A DNA stretch of 64,000 nucleotides from Parcubacteria group bacterium (GCA_016180525.1 JACPBB010000001.1:251840-315839), one strand, 5' to 3'. Counted from the first letter of the stretch, positions 6,285-64,000 are shown. Numbers and translations: made by a program. Notes: a model not told the origin generated them from the sequence alone.

Positions 6285-7568
6285 TTATTTATTTATAAAC
6301 TCTATTGTCTTATCAACTGATTTTAAATTAATGCCCGCATTGTCATATTGCTTTGGAAGTATTCCGCTTTTAAATTGACGTAATGTTTCTATAAATTCAT
6401 TTTCGTTAGCAACAACGTGTTTAATATAAAAATGTTTGGCGTTATCATTCAGTTTCCTAAAATTTGAAAAATTGGTAAATAGTGCCGGTACGCCGCTTGC
6501 GAGTACCATGTAATTCACGCTTGATGTCGGATCGCCAATGTATATATCGGACAAACACAAAAGTTCATCCGTCCTTGATTCATTGTGGTATATTTTAATA
6601 TCAAATTTTTTATATGATTCATATATCGTTTTTGTTTTGACCTCCGACGGATGAATTTTTAAAATAATATCCGCTGTTTCTGTCGGAAACACCGTCTGTA
6701 TCATTTTAAAAAGAGAGCTATGGTGAGTAACGTGCTCTTCTGGGGTCATGGTGTACCCCTCCGGAATAGGGAGAACGTGAAAACGAAACAGATTTACAAA
6801 AATTTTTATTTTATCTTCGGATAATCCGTATTTACTGAGAAGCTCTGTGCGAAAAAGATGATTTGAATCAATTTTCTGTTTTAGCTCATTTGTAATCTGG
6901 AAATCGAGAGGGCCGACAACGTGCACTGTCCTGAAATCATGTCCTTTTTCAACAGAATCTTGCGCTTCTTTTTTTGTAAACACACCGATTTTATTAGGGA
7001 TCGCTGGGGTGAATCCAAACCGTGGCTCTTTATAAAACAAATCCAATATCCAAAATAAAATTCCCAAAAGGCGGTAATATATATTTCGTGCAAATGTTTT
7101 TTCCTTCGCAGCAACACCGAAACTCTGCCTGGTAAGCAGTGCTGACCCCCATTGCAGCGTAATGGTTTCAATTCCCATCCGATTGGCCTCTTTAAAAATT
7201 GTATCATACGGGTACCTTGATTTTACGGCAATAATTTTTGCCGGCTTAATGGTCTTTAAAAAAGTACGGCACTCTATGCTGTGCGCGTACCTGTTCTTAA
7301 CCGGAGTAAAAAAAGGAATATGAAATTTAGAACTGCCCTTGAGACCTTTTTCAAGAATGTAATATGTATAGTGCTTGTGTTTGCAGTACTCAATAAGTTC
7401 TCTTCGACGGGAGTCATCTCCGCTTATAAATAAAAAACCGACATCGTAGGTATTTTTAAGATGCGGAATGAGCCGCTCATAGTGCTTGAGCGGCCCTATG
7501 TATTGCGGTATAAAATAAATTTTTTGTTTCGTATGCATATGCGCATTCATCAAAAACTCCTTACACAA
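6285..7568 (-). CDS. TagF-like CDP-glycerol/ribitol glycerophosphotransferase family protein (putative)
   Basis: LKIHPSE and LSDIYIGDPTSSVNYMVLASGVPALF motifs resembling the TagF/TagB C-terminal catalytic-domain motifs. Confidence 0.4.
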   Translation of the reverse strand: MCKEFLMNAHMHTKQKIYFIPQYIGPLKHYERLIPHLKNTYDVGFLFISGDDSRRRELIEYCKHKHYTYYILEKGLKGSSKFHIPFFTPVKNRYAHSIECRTFLKTIKPAKIIAVKSRYPYDTIFKEANRMGIETITLQWGSALLTRQSFGVAAKEKTFARNIYYRLLGILFWILDLFYKEPRFGFTPAIPNKIGVFTKKEAQDSVEKGHDFRTVHVVGPLDFQITNELKQKIDSNHLFRTELLSKYGLSEDKIKIFVNLFRFHVLPIPEGYTMTPEEHVTHHSSLFKMIQTVFPTETADIILKIHPSEVKTKTIYESYKKFDIKIYHNESRTDELLCLSDIYIGDPTSSVNYMVLASGVPALFTNFSNFRKLNDNAKHFYIKHVVANENEFIETLRQFKSGILPKQYDNAGINLKSVDKTIEFINK

Positions 7569-7605
7569 TCAATACTTTTAACCAATTTGTCCTTATTAAA
7601 GTTGT

Positions 7606-8463
7606 GTGGTTTCCGTCCTCTGTGCAAATCTTGTGCGCGAGAGAGCACGATGTTATATTGTACCAATGACAATGCGAGACAACAAAAAATGGCAAAAAAA
7701 TTGGCAGCAGGATAAGTTGTATGCCGATATTTTTAAAAAACGGGCAACAGGAGAGCTTCCCGAAATGGAATCGAGCAGGGCGGCGGCAAAAAAAATTCTA
7801 AAATATTTTAAATCCGGGTATTCAATGCTTGATGTCGGCTGCGGAGCCGGGCACTATCTTAACTCCTATGACAGACAACTGAAGGGCAAAAAATACACGT
7901 ATGTCGGCATTGACGCCTCAAAACGATATGTTGATATTGCAAAAAAGGTCTACGCAGAGAGGGGCAACGTGTCATTTCGTGTCGGCTCTATTTATAAATT
8001 GCCGTTTAAGAATAAGTCATTTGATATCGTGGTGTGCAACAATGTGCTCCTGCATCTACCCGAAATTAAACAAGCGATAAAAGAACTTAATCGGGTTGCC
8101 AAAAAAGTGGTGATTATAAGAACGCTTGTCGGCTACAAGTCGTATTATATTAAAAACGTCTGCACCAAAAGCGATTTTGAATATATTAATGTCCCCGACA
8201 ATGACCCGTTTTATAAAGACGGTAGCCCAAAGAATTTTTTCTATTTCAACATTTACAGCAAGCCATATATAGAGGCCGTGGTAAAAAAATATTCACCCAA
8301 AGCAAAGGTAAAAATAGAAGAAGACCGTGATTTTGACGTCAAGAATCTTGCCAAAAACAAAAAAGATTTCCGGGGCAGAATAAATGCCACGGAACTTGCC
8401 GGGAGCATGCAGGCATCAGGTTATATATTATTGCCATGGGCTTTCGTTACTATAGAAAAATAG
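7606..8463 (+). CDS. class I SAM-dependent methyltransferase
   Basis: LDVGCGAGHY (motif I), VGID, FDIVVCNNVLLHLPE (post-I/II). True start may be the internal Met at about 7666-7672. Confidence 0.85.
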   Translation: MVSVLCANLVRERARCYIVPMTMRDNKKWQKNWQQDKLYADIFKKRATGELPEMESSRAAAKKILKYFKSGYSMLDVGCGAGHYLNSYDRQLKGKKYTYVGIDASKRYVDIAKKVYAERGNVSFRVGSIYKLPFKNKSFDIVVCNNVLLHLPEIKQAIKELNRVAKKVVIIRTLVGYKSYYIKNVCTKSDFEYINVPDNDPFYKDGSPKNFFYFNIYSKPYIEAVVKKYSPKAKVKIEEDRDFDVKNLAKNKKDFRGRINATELAGSMQASGYILLPWAFVTIEK

Positions 8464-26086: not shown

Positions 26087-27907
26087 TTATCTTGTTTGGT
26101 ATCTATAAATAATAACCACGCCCGTATCATATAATTTTTCATACCTTTCTAAAAATGTTCTGTTCATGGCAATTTTTTCCTCACGCGGACCTACAAAAAT
26201 ATAATCAAGGTGATACGGAATTTCTTGTGGCACTATGAATGTTTCATACTCGTGAATATACAACGTGGATACATCAGGCGGAAGTTTGTATACAGGATAC
26301 TTATATGGCCGTAATGCTGAATCAAGTGCTCTGCTATTATATTCCGCGGTAAAAAAATTAAAAACACCGCGTTCTGACTCAATAGTTTCGGCAAACACAG
26401 CAGGAGAAATACCTAAAAACTTATATGTAATAAAAAAACGGTCAAGAACCTCTACTTTTGAAAGAAGGTTGTTTTGAGATCGCGCCTGAAAGATTCTGTT
26501 GTGCGTATATGCCGCGAGCTCAATGTTTGTCTCAATCGATGGGGTCATGACAACACTGTCTTTGGGCGTATTTTTATTAAGCCATTCATATGCCTCCATA
26601 AGAGCCGGGGCAACGGTATAATTGGCGGCATATTTTATATTTTCCTTAATTGTGCTTTCTAGAACGTGCGTCGTCAAAAACAAAATGGAAATGAGCGCAA
26701 GGACTGAAAATATTTTTCTCAAATACAAAGATCGCGACTTGAGCAATGGATTCACAAGAACCCATCCATAATATGCAAGCGTCGGCAATATCATTCCGTT
26801 AACAATTAAAAAAACCTTATTCCCCCAATGGTCAGACTGAAGTGAAAAACCGGTAATGACATTTATGTTATACACGATAATCCCCGTCACAGACAACGCG
26901 GCAAGAAAAAAACCAAGGGTTTTTTTAGAAAGTTTTTGTCCGATGTAAAGAGCCGCTCCCGCCATAAACGTGTGCAGGATATAAGTCTTCCATAAAAACC
27001 ATCGTACGCCATACTCCTCTTCAATACCCATACGAGCCATAATATCATCGTAGGAAGGAAGTTGAGAAAGATTATATTGATTTATCCAGAACGGAACGGA
27101 GACAATGACTCCGATAATGCCAGATAAAAAAACGGTTTTAGCGAAGGAGTAATTTTTTGTTAATACAAAAAACAAAAAAAGAACGCCGAGAAAAATTGTT
27201 GCAAACACCCAGAAATAAAAATAGAGATAAAAGAGCAGCCCATAAAAGATTCCTCCTAAAACAATGAAGGTTTTTTGTCTTGATTCTTCAGTAAGCGCTC
27301 TATACACAAAATAAAACATCAATACAAAAAATGGACCGCTCGGAATGTATGAATCTCTCGCTAAGAAATTAAGTTCAGAAGTTGTGACTCCTGAAAACGG
27401 AATAAATTGAAATATAAGCGCCTTCAGCTCGGTTAAAGACGAGGGAGGCAGGAGGGTCGACAATTGTGGAAAAAGCATAACCGCGTATGCGGAAACAAGA
27501 GAGAAGAATCTATGCTGTGTAAATCTATAGAGAACTAAAAAGAGTGATATGAAAATAAGTATTGGAAAAATAAATTCTGTTATTATGATTCCGGGAAAGA
27601 TTGACTCAAATGGCAAGAAAAATGGAAAAAGAATTGTAGCTGATAAAATTGGCCATAAAATAGGGCCGCCTTTGTGCTCATATGTGTCCATTTCGCCAGG
27701 AATAAACGCCCCGTCGACAATGTCTCGATAACGAGCGGCGTGAATGTTAATGTGGTCAAATGTTGAAGTAATGGTAAGCGGAATATAACGTTCTCCACGA
27801 TCTGTGAGTGTTTCATAACGGACAAAATGCGGCAAAACAGAATAAACGATGCCGATCATAAGAACAGCAAAGAAAAAAAGGATCTTAAACGAAAACAATT
27901 TTTGCAT
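26087..27907 (-). CDS. large polytopic membrane protein (putative GT-C-type glycosyltransferase or polymerase)
   Basis: 606 aa with at least 12 hydrophobic segments plus a soluble C-terminal domain. Sits in glycan-locus context. No precise family match. Confidence 0.4.
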   Translation of the reverse strand: MQKLFSFKILFFFAVLMIGIVYSVLPHFVRYETLTDRGERYIPLTITSTFDHINIHAARYRDIVDGAFIPGEMDTYEHKGGPILWPILSATILFPFFLPFESIFPGIIITEFIFPILIFISLFLVLYRFTQHRFFSLVSAYAVMLFPQLSTLLPPSSLTELKALIFQFIPFSGVTTSELNFLARDSYIPSGPFFVLMFYFVYRALTEESRQKTFIVLGGIFYGLLFYLYFYFWVFATIFLGVLFLFFVLTKNYSFAKTVFLSGIIGVIVSVPFWINQYNLSQLPSYDDIMARMGIEEEYGVRWFLWKTYILHTFMAGAALYIGQKLSKKTLGFFLAALSVTGIIVYNINVITGFSLQSDHWGNKVFLIVNGMILPTLAYYGWVLVNPLLKSRSLYLRKIFSVLALISILFLTTHVLESTIKENIKYAANYTVAPALMEAYEWLNKNTPKDSVVMTPSIETNIELAAYTHNRIFQARSQNNLLSKVEVLDRFFITYKFLGISPAVFAETIESERGVFNFFTAEYNSRALDSALRPYKYPVYKLPPDVSTLYIHEYETFIVPQEIPYHLDYIFVGPREEKIAMNRTFLERYEKLYDTGVVIIYRYQTR

Positions 27908-55757: not shown

Positions 55758-57170
55758 TTATTCCTTTTCTTCAAGAATTGTAAAGTCCTCTGCCGTAACA
55801 GTCTCGCCTGACTCTTCTAGCAAAGGAGCGCGAAAAACGAAAAAGAAGCCGAGAAACCCCATAAGCATGAGCCCCGCGAATCCGAAAAGCCATTTCATTA
55901 TGGAATTGTTTTGGCTATGTGCTCCTACGGCTGCCGCAACTTGTGTCTTTTCCGAAGCTGATTCTTCATTATTTAAAACAGGCTTTTCTTTTAATGCTTT
56001 GGTATCTGCATCTTTAGAGACGGTTACAACTATTGGAAGTGGAGATGCAATTGGGGGCACAGGAATATAAGCAGAAGCAATGTTTCCATTTGGATAAAGA
56101 AGGGCAACATCGCCACTAAAAGCAAGTCCGGTTACTTGCGGAGCAAATCGCAATGTTTTTCCTGAAGCGATAAGCGTATTTGCTGGAACCATAAAATGCC
56201 CACCTTCCGAGCGCAATACCCACCCTTCAAGATTGACTTCGTATTTTGTGTTGTTTGTAACTGCTATAAAAAAATCCTGAGGTGTGCCGATACCACTTAC
56301 CGCAATGTCAGAGGGAACAGTCATCACATTTATTTTTGCTGACGCGGCGTATCCGCCGGAACTCCCCTCAAGAACAACTATATATTCCCCGGGATAGCGA
56401 TATGTGTGAGAAACTGCCGAGCCCTCTCCCCTTTCACCGTCTCCGAAACTCCACAGAAAGCGGACGTTCTCTATGGGCTCACTCTTAAGGCCAAGAGCAG
56501 AGCCGCGAAAGGCAATTGGAGCGCCCACAAGCGCGACACGCCTTACCTGCCCCGCGCTCACAGTAATTGTTTGCTTTGGTTCTGGCGCATAAATACTTTC
56601 CGAGTTTCCTACAACTGGCCCTTCAAGTGTCTCACCCGCTGTCTCTTGGTTATTTCCTCCACCTTCATCATTTGTCACCCCAGGAGTTGGTAGTGCGGCA
56701 ATCCATTGTCCCTGTATTAATTGAATTGATAAGCCGTTTTTTTGTGCGCCAGCATTTTCCCCATATGAAACTGAGCCAACGGTCACACCACTTTCATTAG
56801 CCAGAGATAAAATATCGCCAATATCAGTGAGAGAAAAAGAGCCGTCAATCACAGTGCCAGAAAATCCTTGGTGCGTATTTAAAAATGTATCGGCCTCTTT
56901 GGCGATAATAGCATATGCGTTGGGAGACACGGTAAGAGTTCCTTGTCCCCCGTTCTTAGGCGGCTTTTCAAAAACGTGATTTGTTCCATCATTAAATCGC
57001 CATTCTGTGAGATCAACTGATTCACTTCCCTCATTTAAAATCTCAAACCATTCGTAGGCAACACCCTCTTCCGGAGCATACATTATTTCGGTAATTACTA
57101 CTTGCGCATGCGAAAAGACCGGAAAAAGAAAGAGAAATAAAGCTAATAATAAAGCAGCATGTCGTTTCAT
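55758..57170 (-). CDS. secreted/membrane-anchored surface protein with lamin-tail domains (LTD)
   Basis: Signal peptide MKRHAALLLALFLFLFPVFSHA. VVITEIMYAPEEGVAYEWFEILNEGSESVDLTEWRF is a classic LTD. A second LTD-like segment follows, then a C-terminal TM anchor. The track start is a TTG. Confidence 0.7.
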   Translation of the reverse strand: MKRHAALLLALFLFLFPVFSHAQVVITEIMYAPEEGVAYEWFEILNEGSESVDLTEWRFNDGTNHVFEKPPKNGGQGTLTVSPNAYAIIAKEADTFLNTHQGFSGTVIDGSFSLTDIGDILSLANESGVTVGSVSYGENAGAQKNGLSIQLIQGQWIAALPTPGVTNDEGGGNNQETAGETLEGPVVGNSESIYAPEPKQTITVSAGQVRRVALVGAPIAFRGSALGLKSEPIENVRFLWSFGDGERGEGSAVSHTYRYPGEYIVVLEGSSGGYAASAKINVMTVPSDIAVSGIGTPQDFFIAVTNNTKYEVNLEGWVLRSEGGHFMVPANTLIASGKTLRFAPQVTGLAFSGDVALLYPNGNIASAYIPVPPIASPLPIVVTVSKDADTKALKEKPVLNNEESASEKTQVAAAVGAHSQNNSIMKWLFGFAGLMLMGFLGFFFVFRAPLLEESGETVTAEDFTILEEKE

Positions 57171-57204
57171 TGAACTAGATTCTAGCAAACTATGTATTAT
57201 TTTC

Positions 57205-57238
57205 AAGAAAAAACGTCTGAAGAAATTACTTCAGACGT
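57205..57238 (-). terminator. rho-independent terminator after the NYN-domain gene
   Basis: ACGTCTGAAG-AAATTA-CTTCAGACGT 10-bp stem. On the minus strand it is followed by TTTTTTCTTG. Confidence 0.7.
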
Positions 57239-57255
57239 TTATGAAAAACTTTAAA

Positions 57256-58833
57256 TTATTGTGTGCGTGTCATTCTTCCGAATCGTGCTCCGTATCCGTG
57301 AACTCTTTGGTGATTCTTTTGAAACACCGTGAGATGTTTTGGTTCAACAAACAAAACAGAATCTGCCATGTTGTGTGATTTCTGATTTAAATGACCATGC
57401 TGTGCGATAAAGGCAATAGTTAATTTCGTATTCGTCTCTCTGGCCGCATGCCGCAAATGATGGAGCGTATGGTTGTAATCGCCGTCTCCCGTAACAAGAA
57501 TAACGTGAACGGTTGTATATTTTTCCATCGCGTCCCGCACAAAGAATCCTATGTCGCCAGACATGACTACGTCAGTATCCTTTTTCGGATGCCGAATAAT
57601 CGTAAATCCTTCCTGCTTTGCATTAAATTCAACATCACTCGCCAAAACTCCCGTCCACACATACGCGTATAAGCCCTGTATTCTTTCACGCGCGGATGGT
57701 TCTTGCATAATTGCAAGACGTAGAGCGTGCCAGTTGAGATTTTGAATGGAAAGTATTCTTCTCCCACATTCCTTTCCGTCTCCATCTACACCCTCTCGCG
57801 CTCCTGTAAGATTGCCGACATCAACGAAGATGAATGTTATCGGCTCCGTGCTTCTTTCGTCCTTCTTTTCGGCACGTTTTTTCAGGTCTTTAAGCGTTTC
57901 TGTCCTTACTAATTGAAATCCATCAGGCACTTGAAGCAATCCGACGGGCTTTTGTTCCGGCTTTTTAGGAAAAGAAACATATTTTTTGGGAATATCATTC
58001 CTTAAAATCTTTACCCGTTGAATACTCTGCCTACCACGGCCTTCTAAATCGTACACAAGCTGTATACATCCACGGTCATTGAGGTCTATTAAATAGGCCC
58101 GATATGCAACCTTGTACCGCCCGAGTTGTTTTTCTTCCACAACACCGAGAATTGCGATGCGACAGAGTTCTTCAAGTAGTGCAGAGAGATTTTTCCTCCT
58201 CGCCTCTTCGCCAGAGCCCCGGTGGGATGCAATGGGCCGCAAATTTGATAATACAGCACGATTTCTATCACTCTCATGAAGAGCGATAAAATCCATTTGA
58301 ACTTCTGTCACCGCGAAGTGCGCCGGTGTGTCCGACTGAAAAAGATTTGGCTTAAAAGGTTTTGTGGATGCCACCACTTCTTTATTGAATCCAGCACTCC
58401 CCGATAACTTCTTTTTTTGAATGGCCTGTATATCCTCCTCTGTACACTCAAGAAGCGTAAGCATTTGAGTCCAGCTCAGTGATAACGCAGTGCAAGCAAC
58501 CTTAAGTGCCGCGACAATATTTCCTTGAATTAATTCAACGTATTCTATTTTACCTCCATGCCGACGATCAATTACATCAGTTTCATACCTTACCTTAAGA
58601 CATGAACCATTGAACGGAATTTTTGACTTTTCTTTTGCGTCAAGAGCAAATAGGAATTCGTATCGCGCAGGATTTTCAAAAAACGGAGAAAGCTGAGCGC
58701 GCGGAACCCTATTCCCTAAAGAAATTGAATGCAGGTACACAAGAACGCCCGGGAGCTTCATTTCCCGCCCAAGACCCTTCTTTTTCATAGACAACACATG
58801 TTCCAGATATGCGACACTGCCTAGAGTGTGCAT
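57256..58833 (-). CDS. NYN/LabA-like (PIN-fold) domain protein with a large uncharacterised N-terminal domain
   Basis: C-terminal ITFIFVDVGNL...VHVILVTGDGDYNHTLHHLR matches the NYN/LabA catalytic signature. About 330-aa N-terminal region of unknown function. Strong GGAAGGAG Shine-Dalgarno upstream. Confidence 0.55.
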   Translation of the reverse strand: MHTLGSVAYLEHVLSMKKKGLGREMKLPGVLVYLHSISLGNRVPRAQLSPFFENPARYEFLFALDAKEKSKIPFNGSCLKVRYETDVIDRRHGGKIEYVELIQGNIVAALKVACTALSLSWTQMLTLLECTEEDIQAIQKKKLSGSAGFNKEVVASTKPFKPNLFQSDTPAHFAVTEVQMDFIALHESDRNRAVLSNLRPIASHRGSGEEARRKNLSALLEELCRIAILGVVEEKQLGRYKVAYRAYLIDLNDRGCIQLVYDLEGRGRQSIQRVKILRNDIPKKYVSFPKKPEQKPVGLLQVPDGFQLVRTETLKDLKKRAEKKDERSTEPITFIFVDVGNLTGAREGVDGDGKECGRRILSIQNLNWHALRLAIMQEPSARERIQGLYAYVWTGVLASDVEFNAKQEGFTIIRHPKKDTDVVMSGDIGFFVRDAMEKYTTVHVILVTGDGDYNHTLHHLRHAARETNTKLTIAFIAQHGHLNQKSHNMADSVLFVEPKHLTVFQKNHQRVHGYGARFGRMTRTQ

Positions 58834-58887: not shown

Positions 58888-58913
58888 ATAAAAAAGCAAG
58901 TTTTAAAACTTGC
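58888..58913 (-). terminator. rho-independent terminator after gene 58970-60169 (perfect palindrome GCAAGTTTTAAAACTTGC + T-tract)
   Basis: 18-bp perfect palindrome at about 58896-58913, followed on the minus strand by TTTTTTAT. Confidence 0.6.
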
Positions 58914-58969: not shown

Positions 58970-60169
58970 TTATTTTTGTAAAGAAGACAGCACTGTGTTT
59001 ACTAACTTATTTTTTTCTTCTTCGCTTAGAAATTGCTCCGGACCGCCAGACGGCTTTCCTGCAAGAAGCCATTGCTTAAAACAATCTTTGTATGTAGTAA
59101 GCGGTACCGAGACAAGCACAATATCGTCAACTTTTCTTTTGACATATTTGTTAAATCTTTCTTCATCTATTTTCCCCCGCGCTTCTTTTATCTGGTGCTT
59201 CTTCTTTATCAAGTTTGCACCTATGCTAGAAATCGTAAATTGAATGCCCACTATTCGCTTGTTTTTTACAAACTCATCTCTTGACATATCCGTACCCTCT
59301 ACAGCAACACCGAGAACTTTTTGGAGTATATAGACCTTAAAATCGTATTTTAATTCTGTATCTTCAATTGCGTTTGCCGACTCTACCTTAAATAGTATTT
59401 CCGGATTATTATATGACATTCTTATTAAAATATTTTTTGCCATTTTCTCTCCAATAGCACCAACTATAATCGTTCCTTGGAAGTGTTTTTCTATAAATTC
59501 TTCGTCTATATTTGTTCCCCCATGTGTTATTCCTTCAACAACAACAATTTCATCATTAAAAATTGCACCAATCTTCTGTCGCGCTTCTGATAAATCAGAT
59601 AATTTTCTTATTTTGCGCCAAACATCACGAGGGCACGATTCATCAGGCCTATATAAAATCCCCCAGTCCATGTCTGCTACGACATCACCGAATGTAATTT
59701 GTTTTTTCTTTCCATTTACATTTACAAAAATGCCCTTGTTCTCTTCGTTAAAAAAGACGACGCGCCTCCTTACTCTTTCCTCTTCAGGATAATCAATATG
59801 AGAATCAATGTCTTTAAGCCGTTTCTTTAATACATTCATTTCAATTCTTTTATCCGCGACAAAACCAGCCCGCTGAATATTTGAAGCTTCTTTTTGTTGT
59901 TTTTGTTTTTCCTTAATGCTTCTTTTGACTCTTATGCCATATTGAGGCGCGAATACACCTCTTTTTGTTTTCTTTGCTTTTTGAGAAGTTTTTTTTTCTT
60001 GTATTTCTTGAGTTGTTTTTATTTGTGACTGCTCTTTACTAAAATCATTTTTTGGAACTTCAACAGCCCTTGTCGCGTCTAACATCTCCTCTAGCTGCTC
60101 CGCGGCGATTGCTTCAGCCGCAAGTTTTTCCATCGGTGGTTTTAAATTTTCTGGTAAAAAATGCTCCAT
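58970..60169 (-). CDS. hypothetical protein with Lys/Glu-rich N-terminal low-complexity region
   Basis: 399 aa with no recognisable domain. Sits immediately downstream of the T4CP-like ATPase, separated from it by a 5-nt gap. Confidence 0.5.
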   Translation of the reverse strand: MEHFLPENLKPPMEKLAAEAIAAEQLEEMLDATRAVEVPKNDFSKEQSQIKTTQEIQEKKTSQKAKKTKRGVFAPQYGIRVKRSIKEKQKQQKEASNIQRAGFVADKRIEMNVLKKRLKDIDSHIDYPEEERVRRRVVFFNEENKGIFVNVNGKKKQITFGDVVADMDWGILYRPDESCPRDVWRKIRKLSDLSEARQKIGAIFNDEIVVVEGITHGGTNIDEEFIEKHFQGTIIVGAIGEKMAKNILIRMSYNNPEILFKVESANAIEDTELKYDFKVYILQKVLGVAVEGTDMSRDEFVKNKRIVGIQFTISSIGANLIKKKHQIKEARGKIDEERFNKYVKRKVDDIVLVSVPLTTYKDCFKQWLLAGKPSGGPEQFLSEEEKNKLVNTVLSSLQK

Positions 60170-60174
60170 AAATA

Positions 60175-62229
60175 TTATTTGGGATTTCTTTCATCGCCCG
60201 AGCTCATATCTAACATTTTTTTAAGCTCATCTTCAGGAATTTCCGGAATATTTTTTGGTTCTTCTTTTTTGGCCTCTTGAACATTTGGTTTTTGCTGCAC
60301 ATCGTTTGTTATTGGCTCCTTGTCATTTGCCGTCTCTTGTCTGTTGTTTCTTGCTCCGCGCGCTTCACTTCCCGAGGTTGGGATTTCTTGTTCCTTCGCC
60401 TGAAGAGCTTCTTTGAGCGTTTTCCGCAACTCATCCGCGTTTTGAGAGACCGATTCTTTTTGAGGAGAATTGGGACGAAGCGAACTTAATGAGACGGGCT
60501 GCTCTACGCGCTCTCTCGGCCATCGGTTTGACGAAGTTAGATCTTGAGAAGACGTAATCGGCTCCTGCCTTTTTTCATATATCCTCTGTGACGTTGGCCT
60601 TTCTCCCCTCAAGGTTCTTTCTGTTCTCGGAGGTCTGCCGTCGTTCCTCCTGTCAACATAAGTAGCATTAAATGCTTTTTTAAATGGCTGATGAACTGGC
60701 TGTTCATCCACCCGTCCGCCCCTTTGAGAGCGCTCGCCTACCCATGCGTTGCGCGCAGGTGGGCGAAGAGGCGCGGCAACAGCGGGCTCCCGCATAGGCG
60801 CCCTTTTTTGTTCATCTACTTGAGGAGAGCGAAATTCTCTTTCTCTTTCAGGTGGCCTTTGAAAATCTTTGCGTGGAGTGTCAAGCCGACTTTCTCTATA
60901 AGGCTTTTCCTTCTTTGACTGCTTTTCCGGAGGAGGTGCGGAGAGGTGCCGCTCTAAAATTTTAGATTCTACCTCCGCACGCGGGCGTGCGTATGTCTCC
61001 CGTGAATGGACGAGCACTTCTTCTTTCCATGACCGCGCCGGTTTTTCAATCGGAGGAAGAGTCACTGAAGAGAATGGTTTTGAGGCAAGTCCATCAATCA
61101 TTAACTTTAAATAAATTTGGTAGTATCCGAGGTTTACCAAATCCTCCGCCATAAAAGTCGGAGAAAATTCTTTCTCTAAAACCTCTGCGTCTTCAGCGCC
61201 GACCCGAAACACAATCGTGGTGCCCACGTTTCCAAAGACCGCCTCACGCACTTCATCAGGCATCTGACCTATATATTGGTGTGCAATAGTAAGAGATAAT
61301 TTATATTTACGCGATTCAGACAAAATATCGGCAAATGTTTCGTTCGCAAATGACTGGAATTCATCAACAAAAAAATAAAACGGGGGGAGTTTATTAAGTT
61401 CTGCGGCGGTTGTGTCAGCCCGAGACATTGCCGCAAGATAGATTTTAATAATGAGCATGCTCCCAATCAGTTTCGCGTTCGTGTCTCCAATTCTTCCTTT
61501 TGATAAGTTGATAATAAGAATCTTCTTCCCGTCCATCGCCTCTCTGAAATCAAATGAGGATTTTGGTTGACCTATAATATTTCTAATAAGCGGGTTTGAG
61601 ACGAATTGCCCGATTTTATTTTGAATTGCGGGAGTCGCTTCTTGTGTATATCTATCGGTATATTTTGCAAATTCATCAACCCAAAATGATTTGATAACTG
61701 GATCAGTAATATGGTCAACGACATCCTTGCGAAATTCTTTATTTACGAGCATGCGATTCACGTCAAGAAGCGTTGAATCCGGATATTCCAAAAGCGCAAA
61801 GAGCGTATTGCTTAAAATGTATTCCATTCTCGCCGACCATACATCGGGCCAGATTTTTTTAAACGTACTGATGAGACCGCTCACGACGAGGTGGCGTTTG
61901 TCATATCCCACATCTTCCATCACATTAAATGAAATAGGGAAATTTGCGTCAAAAGGTGCGAAGTGAATAACATCGTTTACGCGCTCTTCGGGAACATAAT
62001 CAAGAAGCGCGGCAGTTACTTCTCCGTGTGGGTCAATAAAGGCCATGCCATTCCCGTTTTGAATATCTTGCACTGCCATATTTTGTAAAAGTACCGTTTT
62101 CCCCATCCCCGTTTTTCCAATAACGTAGATGTGTTTACTGCGATCAAGCGCCTTAATGCCGAACACTTGTTCTTTCCCCCGATAATCCGCTTTTGCAAAA
62201 TATGTTTTTCTGCTTGTATCTTCTTTCAT
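60175..62229 (-). CDS. P-loop NTPase of the TraD/TrwB/VirD4 (type IV coupling protein) / HerA-FtsK superfamily, no TM segments, about 270-aa disordered C-terminal tail
   Basis: DRSKHIYVIGKTGMGKTVLL (Walker A), AFIDPHGE (cf. DPKGE of T4CPs), FYFFVDEFQSF (Walker B). The C-terminal about 270 aa are low complexity, rich in R/E/P/K/Q. Confidence 0.6.
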   Translation of the reverse strand: MKEDTSRKTYFAKADYRGKEQVFGIKALDRSKHIYVIGKTGMGKTVLLQNMAVQDIQNGNGMAFIDPHGEVTAALLDYVPEERVNDVIHFAPFDANFPISFNVMEDVGYDKRHLVVSGLISTFKKIWPDVWSARMEYILSNTLFALLEYPDSTLLDVNRMLVNKEFRKDVVDHITDPVIKSFWVDEFAKYTDRYTQEATPAIQNKIGQFVSNPLIRNIIGQPKSSFDFREAMDGKKILIINLSKGRIGDTNAKLIGSMLIIKIYLAAMSRADTTAAELNKLPPFYFFVDEFQSFANETFADILSESRKYKLSLTIAHQYIGQMPDEVREAVFGNVGTTIVFRVGAEDAEVLEKEFSPTFMAEDLVNLGYYQIYLKLMIDGLASKPFSSVTLPPIEKPARSWKEEVLVHSRETYARPRAEVESKILERHLSAPPPEKQSKKEKPYRESRLDTPRKDFQRPPEREREFRSPQVDEQKRAPMREPAVAAPLRPPARNAWVGERSQRGGRVDEQPVHQPFKKAFNATYVDRRNDGRPPRTERTLRGERPTSQRIYEKRQEPITSSQDLTSSNRWPRERVEQPVSLSSLRPNSPQKESVSQNADELRKTLKEALQAKEQEIPTSGSEARGARNNRQETANDKEPITNDVQQKPNVQEAKKEEPKNIPEIPEDELKKMLDMSSGDERNPK

Positions 62230-62253
62230 AGATTGAATTTTAACACAAATTTA

Positions 62254-63456
62254 CTATTCAGTCAAATCACCTAAAAGAGCCTCACGAGTATATTGATTTG
62301 AAGGATCCCACAACATCCAGCTATCCAGGCCGGCATCATAAACAGCCTGCATTTGTGTTTTAACCATATCTACTGTATAGGGTACTGGGTAATCAAAGTC
62401 CTGAAGCCATGGACGGAGTTTCTCTGGCGTTGAGCTTGCCGCGGTCAATCGCGCTGCCGCTCTATCCATTGAAAACTTGACGATTTCATACGGATACGCA
62501 TTTACGTTCTGGTATCCATTAAATCCCTTTGGATAATGAGACGGGTATACCATTGGTGCAATATAATCAAAATACGGCTCTGCAAACTCAAGTACCTGTC
62601 CGATGTTTAAATCGTCTGTGTTTGTGGAGGCCATTCCAAACAAATCAGCCGAAAGAATCACTCCGCTCTTTTTCAGCCCTTCGTAGAGATGGGCGAAAAA
62701 TTCTTTAAGCGTATGCGCTTTGCCAAATGCGGGGTCGGCAATAATACGCGCCTCACTCCATGGATAATAAATATCACGCATATTTCCGTCTGACGGGAAG
62801 CGAATGTAATCGTAGTTCAGTTCGTCAAAACCGATTTGGTAAGATTCCAAAGAAAGGTCAATTATATAACTCCAATATTCTTGCGCGCCAGCGTCTATAA
62901 AACTGATACCTTTATAATCTTTCCAAATTGTTTTGTCGGATTCTTTCTGCACAGCAAGGTCAGGTCGTTTTTTCGCAAAAAAGGGGTCTTGAAACACCGT
63001 AATCCGCCCAATGACATAAATATTTTTTTCGTGAAGCGTACGTATAAACTCTTTCATGTCCTGTACGCGACAGGTAATGCCGAGTGCTTCATTTAAATGA
63101 GAATTTTTAGTTTCAAACGCTATATTACCGCTGTAATCCTTGATGTCTATAATAATTGAGTTTAATTTTGTCTCCTCAATCAATTTTACCAGCCGACTGC
63201 GGATACTTGGGGTTCCCGCGACACAACTTGTCATGTAGATGCCATATACGGATTTCGGCGTTTTTATGTGAGTAACGGGTGGCTCCTTTATTTCTTCCGC
63301 AGCCTCTTCAAGCGCCGCAAGATAACTATCTCCATTGCCCGGCTCATAGACCGTTCTCACAAAAAAAGGTACGGTAAAAAATGCTACGGCGGCAAATAAA
63401 AAAAAGCCGACGCCCATAAGTATGTATCTTCTACTTATTGTTTTCATGTGGGACAT
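62254..63456 (-). CDS. putative glycoside hydrolase-like TIM-barrel protein (GHL/DUF4015-like) with N-terminal TM anchor
   Basis: TM anchor YILMGVGFFLFAAVAFF, then VYGIYMTSCVAG...IIIDIKDYSG...DELNYDYIRFP is typical of uncharacterised GH-like families. Confidence 0.35.
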   Translation of the reverse strand: MSHMKTISRRYILMGVGFFLFAAVAFFTVPFFVRTVYEPGNGDSYLAALEEAAEEIKEPPVTHIKTPKSVYGIYMTSCVAGTPSIRSRLVKLIEETKLNSIIIDIKDYSGNIAFETKNSHLNEALGITCRVQDMKEFIRTLHEKNIYVIGRITVFQDPFFAKKRPDLAVQKESDKTIWKDYKGISFIDAGAQEYWSYIIDLSLESYQIGFDELNYDYIRFPSDGNMRDIYYPWSEARIIADPAFGKAHTLKEFFAHLYEGLKKSGVILSADLFGMASTNTDDLNIGQVLEFAEPYFDYIAPMVYPSHYPKGFNGYQNVNAYPYEIVKFSMDRAAARLTAASSTPEKLRPWLQDFDYPVPYTVDMVKTQMQAVYDAGLDSWMLWDPSNQYTREALLGDLTE

Positions 63457-63668: not shown

Positions 63669-64000
63669 TCACAGAGGCTCCACAAGTACCACAAATTCGC
63701 CCCTTATTTTTTCTTTGTTTTTTTCAAAATACGCGATAAGTTCATCTGCCGTGCCCAAAACCCCCTCCTCATATATTTTAGTAAGCTCGCGCGCAACAAA
63801 TATTTTCCTCCCCGAAGTAAGAAATTTTTTTAATGAGATAAGCGCTTTCATAATGCGATGCGGAGATTCATAAAAAACGACAGTTCGTTTTAATGCAGCA
63901 ATTTCTTTAAAAAGCGTTTCTCTTCCTTTTTTGTGCGGCAAAAATCCTAAAAATAAAAAATCGGATGAAGGAAGCCCACTTATTGAAAGTGCCGCAATCG
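63669..64000 (-). CDS. rsmI: 16S rRNA (cytidine1402-2'-O)-methyltransferase RsmI, partial (N-terminus beyond window end)
   Basis: ...SDFLFLGFLPHKKGRETLFKEI...VFYESPHR...RELTKIYEE matches the RsmI C-terminal half (GFLP.K...R, RELTK.FEE). The reading frame stays open to position 64000. Confidence 0.75.
   Translation of the reverse strand, partial: IAALSISGLPSSDFLFLGFLPHKKGRETLFKEIAALKRTVVFYESPHRIMKALISLKKFLTSGRKIFVARELTKIYEEGVLGTADELIAYFEKNKEKIRGEFVVLVEPL

What the first reader, a model, noticed from the sequence alone, without database searches (positions are those of the whole stretch)
58970..62229. TM-less TraD/VirD4-type ATPase with a 270-aa disordered charged tail, followed by an unknown 399-aa protein with a Lys/Glu-rich N-terminal segment (5-nt gap)
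The ATPase has the N-terminal 'TrwB_AAD_bind'-like arrangement (DRSKHIYVIGKTGMGKT ... IDPHGE ... FYFFVDEFQSF). It lacks the N-terminal membrane anchor of conjugative coupling proteins, and no VirB4/VirB6/relaxase genes are present in 64 kb. Its C-terminal about 270 residues are extreme low complexity (R/E/P/K/Q rich), unusual for T4CPs. The downstream 399-aa protein has no detectable domain and a Lys/Glu-rich N-terminal segment. This could be an orphan DNA-translocase or defence-associated ATPase (HerA/FtsK-like ATPases pair with nucleases in several anti-phage systems). The next gene is the NYN-domain gene.
Basis: partly seen in the sequence, partly recalled or inferred. Interest (0 to 1): 0.65.

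Follow-up and report, generated by a model that had tools for sequence, protein, structure and literature searches.

The report
Soluble coupling-protein-like ATPase of Parcubacteria
The ATPase is one copy of a very conserved, membrane-anchor-less relative of conjugation "coupling" motors found across Parcubacteria-type bacteria. The unknown 399-aa gene and the NYN gene next to it are recent insertions, not its partners, so this is not an ATPase-nuclease defence pair.

Summary
A 684-aa ORF (60175-62229, minus strand) encodes a VirD4/TraD/TrwB-type ATPase with no membrane segment and a roughly 255-aa disordered R/E/P/K/S/Q-rich tail. Five nucleotides downstream lies a 399-aa ORF with no known domain, followed by a weak NYN gene.

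The ATPase belongs to a large Parcubacteria family: more than 8000 proteins and at least 584 species representatives. Its motor domain was 65-73% identical across the best 80 species loci. It sits in a conserved gene order: murD, murC, rsmI, DUF4015, ATPase, then a surface protein with LTD and PKD domains, then glycan genes.

In 82 related loci the 399-aa and NYN genes were never nearby. Three close relatives show that they were inserted stepwise between the ATPase and the LTD/PKD gene. That surface-protein gene directly follows the ATPase in about 40 of 72 species. In four species a ComEA-type DNA-binding module replaces its first domain.

The tail is not featureless. It carries conserved short helices, including a C-terminal "EIPEDxLRKML" peptide.

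Published surveys already report orphan coupling-protein homologues in most Patescibacteria. The function remains inferred. My best reading is an envelope DNA or substrate translocase recruited through its tail.

The parts
60175..62229 (-). Gene for the 684-aa soluble coupling-protein-like (T4CP-like) ATPase
   Evidence: ORF. Pfam TrwB_AAD_bind, T4SS-DNA_transf and TraG-D_C. An identical protein is in NCBI as 'type IV secretory system conjugative DNA transfer family protein [Parcubacteria group bacterium]'.
60940..62229 (-). Motor domain, residues 1-430: nucleotide-binding domain with an inserted all-alpha domain
   Evidence: AlphaFold2 10-residue block pLDDT is mostly 72-97 over residues 1-430. 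Foldseek: DotL 7.7e-11, HerA 2.6e-9, Cagbeta 2.7e-8, TrwB 3.7e-8 with TM 0.60 normalised to the target. Identity is 65-73% across 81 species loci.
62095..62118 (-). Walker A motif GKTGMGKT (residues 38-45)
   Evidence: G38, K39, T40, G41, M42, G43 and K44 are invariant in 65 homologues. Coordinates.
61348..61380 (-). Walker B region FYFFVDEFQSF (residues 284-294)
   Evidence: D289, E290, F291 and Q292 are invariant. Coordinates.
61531..61905 (-). All-alpha domain inserted between Walker A and Walker B (about residues 109-233)
   Evidence: Helices 109-233 in the model. The Pfam TrwB_AAD_bind alignment spans this region.
60178..60939 (-). Disordered R/E/P/K/S/Q-rich tail (residues 431-684), variable in length and sequence between species
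   Evidence: pLDDT below 50 over most of residues 450-684. Composition. Tail length in homologues ranges from 4 to 623 residues, median 211. Alignment.
60400..60498 (-). Conserved tail motif PVSLxxL ... NxxELRKxLxxAL (residues 578-610), a short helix within the disordered tail
   Evidence: L601 is invariant and L581 and L605 are at least 90% conserved in 65 homologues. Helix 596-613; its 10-residue pLDDT blocks are about 60 and 82.
60211..60243 (-). C-terminal docking-type peptide EIPEDELKKML (residues 663-673)
   Evidence: L669 and L673 are invariant; E663, P665 and E666 are at least 90% conserved. The strict motif is present in 101 of 120 close homologues. Relaxed variants occur in most species representatives. 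Helix 666-673; pLDDT block about 74.
58970..60169 (-). Gene for the 399-aa protein, a member of an uncharacterised Patescibacteria family. It is a lineage-specific insertion at this position.
   Evidence: ORF. No family hits. 604 clusters at 50% identity match the family profile. Absent from 82 related ATPase loci. Adjacent to the ATPase only in the window and in L090.
58973..59857 (-). Conserved domain of the 399-aa protein (residues 105-399), with invariant G237, E241, D270, D276, F277, G308, W367 and GGP375-377
59858..60169 (-). Variable K/E/A/Q-rich N-terminal segment of the 399-aa protein (residues 1-104)
   Evidence: Composition. Low pLDDT with long predicted helices. Poorly aligned between homologues.
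57256..58833 (-). 525-aa gene with a weak C-terminal NYN domain. It is also a clade-specific insertion.
   Evidence: Pfam NYN 1.7e-4, below cutoff. The orthologue sits between the ATPase and the LTD/PKD gene in L091 and passes the NYN cutoff. Absent from 82 other loci.
55758..57206 (-). Surface protein: signal peptide, LTD, PKD, second LTD, C-terminal membrane helix, acidic cytoplasmic tail (EDFTILEE). This is the usual immediate downstream neighbour of the ATPase. The likely true start is Met13, at 57170.
   Evidence: Pfam LTD 8.9e-23 and PKD. Directly follows the ATPase in 39-40 of 72 species loci. A ComEA-type HHH_3 module replaces the first LTD in L042, L058 and L074; L081 carries a plain ComEA-like protein in the same position. 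Tail motif.
62254..63456 (-). Membrane-anchored DUF4015 protein (putative glycan hydrolase), the usual upstream neighbour
   Evidence: Pfam DUF4015 2.5e-93. Upstream on the same strand in 49 of 67 loci.
62237..62265 (-). Promoter-like site just upstream of the ATPase start
   Evidence: TTGACT-17-TAAAAT with a TG extension. This is a consensus match only; the number of such sites in the region is not above chance.
58896..58913 (-). Terminator-like hairpin between the 399-aa gene and the NYN gene
   Evidence: 7-bp stem followed by a T run. This is a consensus match only.
57211..57240 (-). Terminator-like hairpin after the NYN gene, before the LTD/PKD gene
   Evidence: 12-bp stem followed by a T run.

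Best explanation
What is shown:
- The 684-aa protein is the window's copy of a strongly conserved Parcubacteria (Paceibacterota-type) gene whose position in the chromosome is also conserved.
- It encodes a soluble ATPase of the type IV coupling protein branch (VirD4/TraD/TrwB) of the FtsK-HerA superfamily.
- It has an intact Walker A and Walker B motor with the inserted all-alpha domain, no membrane anchor, and a long disordered tail carrying two or three conserved short helices.
- The 399-aa gene and the NYN gene are recent stepwise insertions into the ATPase/surface-protein junction. They are not conserved partners of the ATPase.
- The 399-aa protein belongs to a Patescibacteria-wide uncharacterised family that usually lies next to cell-wall or tRNA-synthetase genes.

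What is inferred:
- Like other members of this branch, the ATPase forms a hexameric NTP-driven translocase that acts on DNA, or on a protein substrate, at the cytoplasmic face of the membrane.
- Because it has no anchor of its own, it is probably recruited through the tail peptides.
- Its most consistent genetic partner is the gene immediately downstream in other species. That gene encodes a membrane-anchored surface protein whose N-terminal LTD domain is exchanged for a ComEA-type DNA-binding module in some lineages.
- The most likely role is therefore DNA handling at the cell envelope, either uptake or transfer. The ATPase could dock on the chromosomal T4SS-like machinery of Patescibacteria, on the Com channel, or on both.
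For: Family and fold:
- Pfam hits to coupling-protein families.
- Foldseek top hits are DotL, HerA, Cagbeta, TrwB, DndH-C and VirB4, with no FtsK among them.
- The model shows a nucleotide-binding domain plus an all-alpha domain.

No anchor: hydropathy.

Conservation and breadth:
- More than 8000 homologues, all named Parcubacteria or Patescibacteria where a name exists.
- At least 584 species representatives.
- Motor domain median identity 69%, against 48% for MurC, 48% for MurD, 51% for RsmI and 50% for DUF4015 in the same loci.

Gene order:
- DUF4015 is upstream in 49 of 67 loci and RsmI in 36 of 51.
- An LTD/PKD-family gene is immediately downstream in 39-40 of 72 loci. Intergenic distances are mostly -23 to +32 nt, which looks operon-like.
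- The gene after the ATPase is an LTD/PKD protein in 29 loci, a GT4 glycosyltransferase in 17 and an HHH_3 protein in 4, out of 76.

Link to DNA:
- HHH_3 scores 1e-16 to 1e-21 in L042, L058, L074 and L081. In the first three it is followed by the same PKD (plus an LTD-like region in L042 and L058) and a membrane helix.
- Published work reports T4SS loci lying with comF, recG and radA in one Patescibacteria phylum.

Tail motifs.

Insertion history of the 399-aa and NYN genes.

The 399-aa family in other contexts.

Literature: 5,713 VirD4-type homologues in 2,918 of 3,035 Patescibacteria genomes, only 148 near virB4, and the authors raise possible exaptation.
Against: - No experiment or interaction evidence exists. 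The mechanism rests on homology and gene neighbourhood.
- The whole murD-murC-rsmI-DUF4015-ATPase block is about equally syntenic. Part of the neighbourhood signal may therefore be inherited gene order rather than functional coupling.
- 32 of 72 loci have no LTD/PKD-family gene within about 10 kb downstream.
- DNA binding by bacterial LTD domains is not established. It is inferred from the domain swap and from the presence of LTD in extracellular nucleases such as ExeM (search hit only).
- I found no correlation between tail motifs and the presence of the neighbour.
- The 80 loci were chosen as the best ATPase matches. This inflates ATPase identity relative to the neighbouring genes.
- In the one Patescibacterium tested genetically, a Saccharibacterium, the coupling-protein homologue was reported as non-essential, and comEC was also dispensable.
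Confidence: 0.45

Rival explanations
1. It is a classical coupling protein acting in trans. On this view the ATPase is simply the substrate-recruiting ATPase of the chromosomal, relaxase-less T4SS of Patescibacteria (related to monoderm conjugation systems), encoded elsewhere, typically near dnaA. Its neighbours here would be irrelevant.
For: - Coupling-protein fold and families.
- The nearest relatives in cultured organisms include an anchor-less 883-aa coupling-protein-like ATPase beside conjugal-transfer genes and a VirB4-like gene on a Shouchella clausii plasmid.
- VirB4 is present in 2,417 and coupling-protein homologues in 2,918 of 3,035 genomes.
- From my own knowledge, coupling-protein genes are often unlinked from virB4, and coupling proteins are dispensable for pilus biogenesis. 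This would reconcile the reported non-essentiality.
Against: - Only 148 of 5,713 homologues lie near virB4.
- More genomes carry the homologue than carry VirB4.
- The protein has no membrane anchor.
- The tight operon-like coupling to the LTD/ComEA-PKD gene would be left unexplained.
- The homologue is non-essential where the T4SS is essential.
Confidence: 0.25
2. It is a defence-associated ATPase paired with nucleases. On this view the ATPase, the 399-aa protein and the NYN protein form an anti-phage module like HerA-nuclease systems.
For: - PADLOC hits to mad8 (2.4e-16) and to HerA models.
- Structural similarity to HerA.
- A weak NYN domain lies next door.
- The 5-nt gap suggests co-transcription.
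Against: - Zero of 82 related loci carry either partner gene.
- The partner genes were inserted stepwise in a narrow clade.
- The 399-aa family normally lies in housekeeping neighbourhoods.
- The ATPase is far more conserved than its neighbours and occupies the same chromosomal position across species.
- The neighbours have no PADLOC hit apart from a weak NYN match.
- Neither family is common on viral contigs.
Confidence: 0.03
3. It is an FtsK-like chromosome translocase of the divisome. On this view a soluble motor is tethered by a long linker and a C-terminal peptide to division proteins, and it is encoded beside mur genes.
For: - It lies next to murD and murC in most species.
- Its long P/Q/R/E-rich linker resembles the FtsK linker.
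- The layout of a globular domain, a disordered linker and a terminal peptide is typical of division proteins (my own knowledge).
- It shows housekeeping-level conservation.
Against: - FtsK and SpoIIIE are absent from the structural matches.
- The all-alpha insertion is typical of coupling proteins.
- There is no gamma domain.
- I could not test whether these genomes lack a canonical FtsK.
Confidence: 0.1
4. It is an element-derived DNA-processing ATPase of the kind paired with 'replication-relaxation' proteins in Bacillales plasmids and SPO1-like phages, which has become fixed in the chromosome.
For: - The strongest family-level match is phrog_5156 (8e-67).
- Homologues occur in 53 phage records, mostly Bacillus SPO1-like phages and phage G.
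- Homologues occur in 631 plasmid records, of which 467 are non-mobilizable.
- In phage CampHawk and in the S. clausii plasmid, the ATPase gene is followed by a replication-relaxation gene.
Against: - No replication-relaxation gene appears among the genes called around the ATPase in the related loci examined.
- The extra N-terminal region of roughly 330-400 residues seen in the phage and plasmid proteins is absent here.
- Identity to these proteins is only 21-39%.
Confidence: 0.07

Closest known systems
Type IV coupling proteins (TrwB of R388, VirD4, F TraD, DotL, Cagbeta)
   Same: - P-loop nucleotide-binding domain with an inserted all-alpha domain.
- Best structural matches and Pfam families.
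- A C-terminal extension ending in a conserved peptide. From my own knowledge, this resembles the disordered C-terminus of F TraD that docks TraM.
   Different: - No N-terminal transmembrane domain.
- Not linked to a T4SS or a relaxase.
- Strongly conserved, at a conserved position among core chromosomal genes.
- The tail is basic (net charge +9) and carries several short motifs.
Orphan VirD4-type homologues of Patescibacteria (Quinonero-Coronel et al. 2025, Microb Genom, PMC12102498)
   Same: This is almost certainly the same set of proteins. The paper reports 5,713 homologues in 2,918 of 3,035 genomes, mostly far from virB4, with possible exaptation noted.
   Different: In the passages I read, and in a word search for 'transmembrane', the paper does not describe the missing anchor, the motif-bearing disordered tail, the high conservation, or the DUF4015 / ATPase / LTD(ComEA)-PKD gene order.
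Anchor-less DUF87/coupling-protein-like ATPases of Bacillales plasmids and SPO1-like phages (phrog_5156; S. clausii WP_248290882.1; CampHawk gp129)
   Same: Homologous motor domain with 21-30% identity, and phrog_5156 at 8e-67. The plasmid protein also lacks a hydrophobic segment.
   Different: These proteins carry an extra N-terminal region of roughly 330-400 residues instead of a C-terminal disordered tail. They are followed by a replication-relaxation gene.
HerA-nuclease systems (HerA-NurA; HerA-Sir2 and HerA-DUF4297 defence)
   Same: Same superfamily. HerA structures are among the top matches, and PADLOC HerA models hit weakly.
   Different: - Only a short beta-hairpin precedes Walker A, not an N-terminal barrel domain.
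- No conserved nuclease partner.
- Not patchily distributed.
ComEA DNA receptor and Com DNA-uptake machinery
   Same: In four species the gene directly after the ATPase encodes a ComEA-type HHH_3 module on a membrane-anchored surface protein.
   Different: From my own knowledge, known Com systems use ComFA, PriA or ComM-type motors, not a coupling-protein-like ATPase. In the window the neighbouring protein has an LTD domain rather than HHH_3.
PD-(D/E)xK restriction-endonuclease-like fold (considered for the 399-aa protein)
   Same: - Alpha-beta-beta-beta-alpha-beta core in the model.
- Invariant E241, D270 and D276.
   Different: - There is no canonical (D/E)xK motif. K278 is not conserved in the wider family, and Q310 occupies the third strand.

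Membership tests
Type IV coupling protein (VirD4/TraD/TrwB) | P-loop nucleotide-binding domain with Walker A and Walker B | tested here: met
   GKTGMGKT (38-45) and hhhhDE (284-290) are present, with their core residues invariant in 65 homologues. Pfam hits.
Type IV coupling protein (VirD4/TraD/TrwB) | All-alpha domain inserted in the nucleotide-binding domain | tested here: met
   TrwB_AAD_bind at 2.8e-11 over residues 31-345. Helical domain at about 109-233 in the model. TrwB TM 0.60 normalised to the target.
Type IV coupling protein (VirD4/TraD/TrwB) | N-terminal transmembrane anchor | tested here: not met
   The maximum 19-residue hydropathy is 1.27, and the protein starts about 37 residues before Walker A.
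Type IV coupling protein (VirD4/TraD/TrwB) | Encoded with, or demonstrably working with, a T4SS and a relaxase or substrate | tested here: not met
   Locally there is no T4SS gene among the 20 largest ORFs of the window. A plasmid VirB4-like query and two conjugal-transfer protein queries found nothing in 85 sequences including the window. Function in trans is not testable with these tools.
Type IV coupling protein (VirD4/TraD/TrwB) | Hexameric ring with DNA-dependent or substrate-dependent ATPase activity | not testable with these tools
   Needs biochemistry or multimer modelling.
HerA-nuclease defence or repair modules | N-terminal HAS-barrel domain | tested here: not met
   Only two short strands (8-16 and 19-26) precede the P-loop in the model.
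HerA-nuclease defence or repair modules | Conserved adjacent nuclease partner | tested here: not met
   Homologues of the 399-aa and NYN proteins are in 0 of 82 related loci.
MADS defence system (mad8) | Multi-gene mad operon around the ATPase | tested here: not met
   The 399-aa protein has no PADLOC hit and the NYN protein only a weak generic NYN hit; neither matches a mad gene. The remaining genes in the window are envelope and glycan genes.
FtsK/SpoIIIE | FtsK-type motor fold, gamma domain and membrane domain | tested here: not met
   No FtsK or SpoIIIE structure is among the 50 listed matches. No transmembrane segment.
PD-(D/E)xK nuclease superfamily (399-aa protein) | Restriction-endonuclease-like alpha/beta core with a catalytic D...(D/E)xK motif | tested here: inconclusive
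   [not shown]
NYN ribonuclease domain (525-aa neighbour) | Pfam PF01936 above the gathering score | tested here: inconclusive
   In the window: 22.5 bits against a cutoff of 24.2. The orthologue in L091 scores 30.1 bits.

The most novel reading that the evidence does not exclude
A coupling-protein-derived cytoplasmic motor, co-operonic with a ComEA/LTD-type surface DNA receptor and a wall hydrolase-like protein, could form a previously unrecognised DNA-import or DNA-exchange machine in Parcubacteria. These bacteria cannot make nucleotides themselves. The conserved tail peptides would be the handles that dock the soluble motor on the membrane channel.
Probability: 0.15. Interest if true: 0.8.

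Novelty: new variant of a known kind. Interest (0 to 1): 0.45.

Why it matters
Patescibacteria make up a large share of bacterial diversity, and how they exchange material with hosts and the environment is largely unknown. A coupling-type ATPase that is present in nearly all of them, more conserved than their peptidoglycan enzymes, unlinked from the T4SS and missing its membrane anchor is a good candidate for a core, lineage-specific machine.

This analysis turns the published remark of "possible exaptation" into concrete tests. It names candidate partners: the LTD/ComEA-PKD surface protein with its conserved cytoplasmic tail, and DUF4015. It also identifies short tail peptides that can be used as baits.

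It removes a tempting but wrong reading of the locus as an ATPase-nuclease defence pair. It also flags the 399-aa protein as a member of a sizeable uncharacterised Patescibacteria family with no Pfam model.

Tried and rejected
- **Defence pairing.** Rejected on the neighbourhood survey: 0 of 82 loci.
- **MADS/mad8.** The 58-bit PADLOC hit reflects generic motor similarity. No mad genes are nearby, and the MADS preprint gave no functional information on mad8.
- **FtsK-like reading.** Not supported by the fold search. A literature search for FtsK in these lineages was uninformative, and I could not check whole genomes.
- **Tail motifs versus neighbour.** Correlating tail motifs with the presence or type of the LTD/PKD neighbour gave no clear signal. 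The regular expressions were crude, and using longest-ORF starts adds noise.
- **Domains in the 399-aa family.** A Pfam scan of ten diverse family members, including proteins of 705 and 742 aa, found nothing beyond one sub-threshold bZIP_2 match (E 0.0098).
- **Viral contigs.** No relative of the 399-aa family was found, and only three of the ATPase.
- **One wasted Pfam call.** It was aimed at the HHH_3-bearing neighbours but hit the wrong candidates, which were Wzy_C/TPR, MurD, a MazF toxin and others.
- **Promoter and terminator scan.** Site counts were not above the shuffled expectation, so I treat the sites as weak hints.

Full report
**Observation.**

On the minus strand there is a 684-aa ORF (60175..62229) and a 399-aa ORF (58970..60169), separated by TAA-tattt-ATG, a 5-nt gap. 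A 525-aa ORF (57256..58833) follows.

The quoted motifs sit at residues 38-45 (GKTGMGKT), 65-70 (IDPHGE) and 284-294 (FYFFVDEFQSF). Pfam gives TrwB_AAD_bind (2.8e-11), T4SS-DNA_transf (1.1e-7) and TraG-D_C (1.6e-6), with DUF87 below its cutoff. NCBIfam gives only partial hits to TraD/VirD4-type models.

There is no hydrophobic segment. The maximum 19-residue hydropathy is 1.27.

The tail is rich in R, E, P, K, S and Q, is 38% charged, and has net charge +9. AlphaFold2 predicts it to be disordered, with most of residues 450-684 below pLDDT 50.

The 399-aa protein has no hit in Pfam, NCBIfam, PADLOC, PHROGs or PDB sequences. The NYN assignment of the next gene is weak in the window (22.5 bits, cutoff 24.2). 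Its orthologue in L091 passes the cutoff.

**What the ATPase is.**

An AlphaFold2 model built from 65 homologues is confident over residues 1-430. Its best PDB matches are DotL (7.7e-11), archaeal HerA (2.6e-9 and 1.5e-8), Cagbeta (2.7e-8) and TrwB (3.7e-8, with the best TM-score at 0.60 normalised to the target). DndH-C and VirB4 follow. FtsK does not appear.

The protein is therefore a coupling-protein-type motor with the characteristic all-alpha insertion, but it begins only about 37 residues before Walker A and so lacks the membrane domain.

Outside Patescibacteria, the closest relatives are 21-39% identical:
- A stand-alone 395-aa protein on a Sulfitobacter plasmid (39%).
- Anchor-less proteins of about 880-900 aa on Bacillales plasmids and in SPO1-like phages. 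These correspond to phrog_5156, which at 8e-67 is the strongest family-level hit. In both the plasmid and the phage, the ATPase gene is followed by a replication-relaxation gene.

**Distribution and conservation.**

The protein search returned more than 8000 hits. The best 120 are 50-100% identical overall. Every hit that carries an organism name in its source annotation is from Parcubacteria or Patescibacteria; a few JGI entries carry only a generic protein label.

A scan of one genome per species found at least 584 species with a relative. The 80 best loci were fetched. By record title they include Kaiser-, Zambryski-, Taylor-, Nomura-, Yonath- and Adlerbacteria and "Paceibacterota". Some metagenome-assembled genomes are labelled Saccharibacteria or Gracilibacteria, which I could not verify.

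Across these loci the motor domain is 65-73% identical to the window (median 69%). In the same loci MurC is 48%, MurD 48%, RsmI 51% and DUF4015 50% identical. The loci were selected on ATPase similarity, so the contrast is somewhat inflated. The narrow range across named candidate phyla is still notable.

**The tail.**

Tail length in homologues ranges from 4 to 623 residues (median 211), and its sequence is not conserved overall. It does carry conserved islands:
- PVSLxxL followed by NxxELRKxLxxAL (residues 578-610). L601 is invariant, and L581 and L605 are at least 90% conserved, in 65 sequences.
- A terminal EIPEDxLRKML peptide (residues 663-673). L669 and L673 are invariant.

The strict terminal motif occurs in 101 of 120 close homologues. 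Relaxed variants such as EVSEETLRKML, FEVPEExLR and LERMMRV occur in most species representatives.

In the model these two islands are the only tail segments with raised confidence. They are helix 596-613, with 10-residue pLDDT blocks of about 60 and 82, and helix 666-673, with a block of about 74.

The tail therefore looks like a flexible tether carrying docking peptides, not featureless low complexity.

**Neighbourhood: the proposed pairing is not conserved.**

I searched the 82 non-redundant related loci with the window's proteins (tblastn). The 399-aa and NYN proteins were never found.

Homologues of the 399-aa protein in other genomes lie elsewhere:
- Between HSP20 and a MurC-like ligase (L001).
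- Between MurJ and LepA (L003).
- Next to a SpoU methylase (L004).
- After Ddl, FtsW, MurG, GltX and an M23 peptidase (L097, L098).
- Between LeuRS and a GATase-GlmS pair (L099).

Only the closest relative repeats the window's arrangement. L090, with an ATPase about 90% identical, has RsmI, DUF4015, ATPase, the 399-aa homologue and then the NYN homologue. L091, at 87% identity, has ATPase, NYN and then LTD/PKD, without the 399-aa gene. L006/L010, at 83%, have neither inserted gene.

The NYN gene and then the 399-aa gene were therefore inserted stepwise into the junction after the ATPase, within a narrow clade.

**Neighbourhood: what is conserved.**

The recurrent order is murD, murC, rsmI, DUF4015, ATPase, LTD/PKD protein, then glycosyltransferases.
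- DUF4015 is upstream on the same strand in 49 of 67 loci with enough flank. The median gap is 477 nt.
- RsmI is upstream in 36 of 51 loci.
- A profile of the downstream protein family finds it in 40 of 72 loci. In 39 it is immediately after the ATPase, with intergenic distances mostly between -23 and +32 nt, which looks operon-like.
- Where the surface-protein gene is missing, a GT4 glycosyltransferase usually follows (17 of 76).

In the window, the conserved neighbours are DUF4015 (62254..63456) and the LTD/PKD protein (55758..57206). The rest of the window is an envelope-glycan locus. No T4SS gene was detected in the window or in the flanks of the related loci.

**A lead on function.**

The downstream protein has a signal peptide, an LTD domain, a PKD domain, a second LTD-like domain, a C-terminal membrane helix and a short acidic cytoplasmic tail.

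In three species (L042, L058, L074), the first LTD is replaced by a ComEA-type HHH_3 DNA-binding module, scoring 1e-16 to 1e-20, on an otherwise similar protein. In L081 the position is occupied by a plain ComEA-like protein with HHH_3 at 2.8e-21.

By eye, about two thirds of the cytoplasmic tails end in an aromatic-x-I-[ILV]-E-[DE] motif (EDFTILEE in the window). A strict regular expression matched 8 of 24.

Together with the tight gene coupling, this suggests the soluble motor works with a surface protein that binds extracellular DNA. This is inference. DNA binding by bacterial LTD domains is not established, 32 of 72 loci lack the neighbour, and the flanking mur-rsmI block is about as syntenic as the ATPase itself.

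**Relation to the literature.**

A 2025 survey found VirD4-type homologues in 2,918 of 3,035 Patescibacteria genomes, 5,713 proteins in all. Only 148 lay near virB4. VirB4 was present in 2,417 genomes.

The survey noted that the homologue in Ca. Southlakia was not essential although the T4SS was, and that exaptation cannot be excluded. It also reported T4SS loci lying with comF, recG and radA in one phylum.

The Southlakia study itself states that its T4SS cluster lacks recognisable coupling and relaxase proteins, and that comEC is dispensable for growth.

The existence of orphan coupling-protein homologues in this group is therefore known. I did not find the missing anchor, the motif-bearing tail, the high conservation or the specific gene order described.

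**The 399-aa protein.**

A profile search found 604 clusters at 50% identity (560 at E ≤ 1e-10). One is labelled as coming from a Levybacteria genome. This is a sizeable Patescibacteria family with no Pfam model.

The N-terminal 100 or so residues are variable. Residues 105-399 are conserved, with invariant G237, E241, D270, D276, F277, G308, W367 and GGP375-377 across 56 diverse members.

The model is confident there, with pLDDT about 90 over most of the domain and pTM 0.72 for the whole protein. It shows an alpha-beta-beta-beta-alpha-beta core.

A nuclease-like fold is a lead, not a finding. The family's usual neighbours are cell-wall, division and tRNA-synthetase genes, which argues for a housekeeping role rather than defence.

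**Verdict.**

- The family assignment and the "orphan" status are supported.
- The ATPase-nuclease defence reading and the functional pairing with the 399-aa protein are not supported.
- The best-supported account is a core, soluble, coupling-protein-derived translocase that is recruited by tail peptides and acts on DNA or another substrate at the envelope. Possible partners are the LTD/ComEA-PKD surface protein and the chromosomal T4SS-like or Com machinery.
- Confidence is high for identity and evolutionary context, and moderate to low for the mechanism.

Noticed in passing
window 55767-55790 (cytoplasmic tail of the LTD/PKD protein); L032, L036, L056, L064, L074, L082, L087 and others: The single-pass LTD/PKD surface proteins encoded after the ATPase often end in a short acidic cytoplasmic motif, aromatic-x-I-[ILV]-E-[DE]. 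Examples are EDFTILEE, EWNIVEE and DEFDIE. This looks like a docking peptide for a cytoplasmic partner.
   Followed up: partly
L042:12113-13324, L058:11772-13031, L074:2400-3632, L081:6334-6996: In three species a ComEA-type HHH_3 DNA-binding module replaces the N-terminal LTD of the protein encoded directly after the ATPase. In L081 a plain ComEA-like protein occupies that position.
   Followed up: yes
window 60940-62229 compared with L011-L089: The ATPase motor domain is markedly more conserved (median 69% identity) than MurC, MurD, RsmI or DUF4015 in the same loci (48-51%). The loci were selected on ATPase similarity, so the contrast is partly a selection effect.
   Followed up: partly
L100 (Bacillus phage CampHawk gp129-gp128); L096 (Shouchella clausii plasmid): SPO1-like Bacillus phages and Bacillales plasmids share a two-gene module: a large anchor-less coupling-protein-like ATPase (phrog_5156, function unknown) followed by a 'replication-relaxation' protein, with a ParM-like gene nearby. 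In the phages no T4SS is present.
   Followed up: partly
L095 (Sulfitobacter mediterraneus plasmid, 6935-8122): This is the closest non-Patescibacteria relative at 39% identity. It is a stand-alone 395-aa motor domain with no anchor and no tail, flanked by a recombinase and transposases on a non-mobilizable plasmid.
   Followed up: no
L097 and L098 (6001 onward): Distant members of the 399-aa family sit at the end of a Ddl, FtsW, MurG, GltX, M23-peptidase, small-ORF string in two genomes. This hints at a link between this uncharacterised family and the cell wall or cell division.
   Followed up: partly
window 1-55700: Most of the window is one long minus-strand envelope-glycan locus. It contains many GT4 glycosyltransferases, CDP-glycerol glycerophosphotransferase-like proteins, a DegT aminotransferase, a UDP-glucose dehydrogenase, a carbamoyltransferase, C-methyltransferases and an ABC exporter. 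Two large ORFs have no Pfam hit at E ≤ 1e-5: 26087-27907 (606 aa) and 6285-7568 (427 aa).
   Followed up: no
L010 compared with L006 (between the ATPase and the LTD/PKD gene); L014:9999-10385: The junction after the ATPase is a recurrent insertion point. There are extra small ORFs in L010, a MazF/PemK toxin gene in L014, and the NYN gene with or without the 399-aa gene in the window's clade.
   Followed up: partly
window 63669-63941: Only the C-terminal 90 or so residues of an RsmI-like (TP_methylase) gene form an ORF here, bounded upstream by a stop codon. The gene may be split, or its start may have been miscalled near the edge of the window.
   Followed up: no
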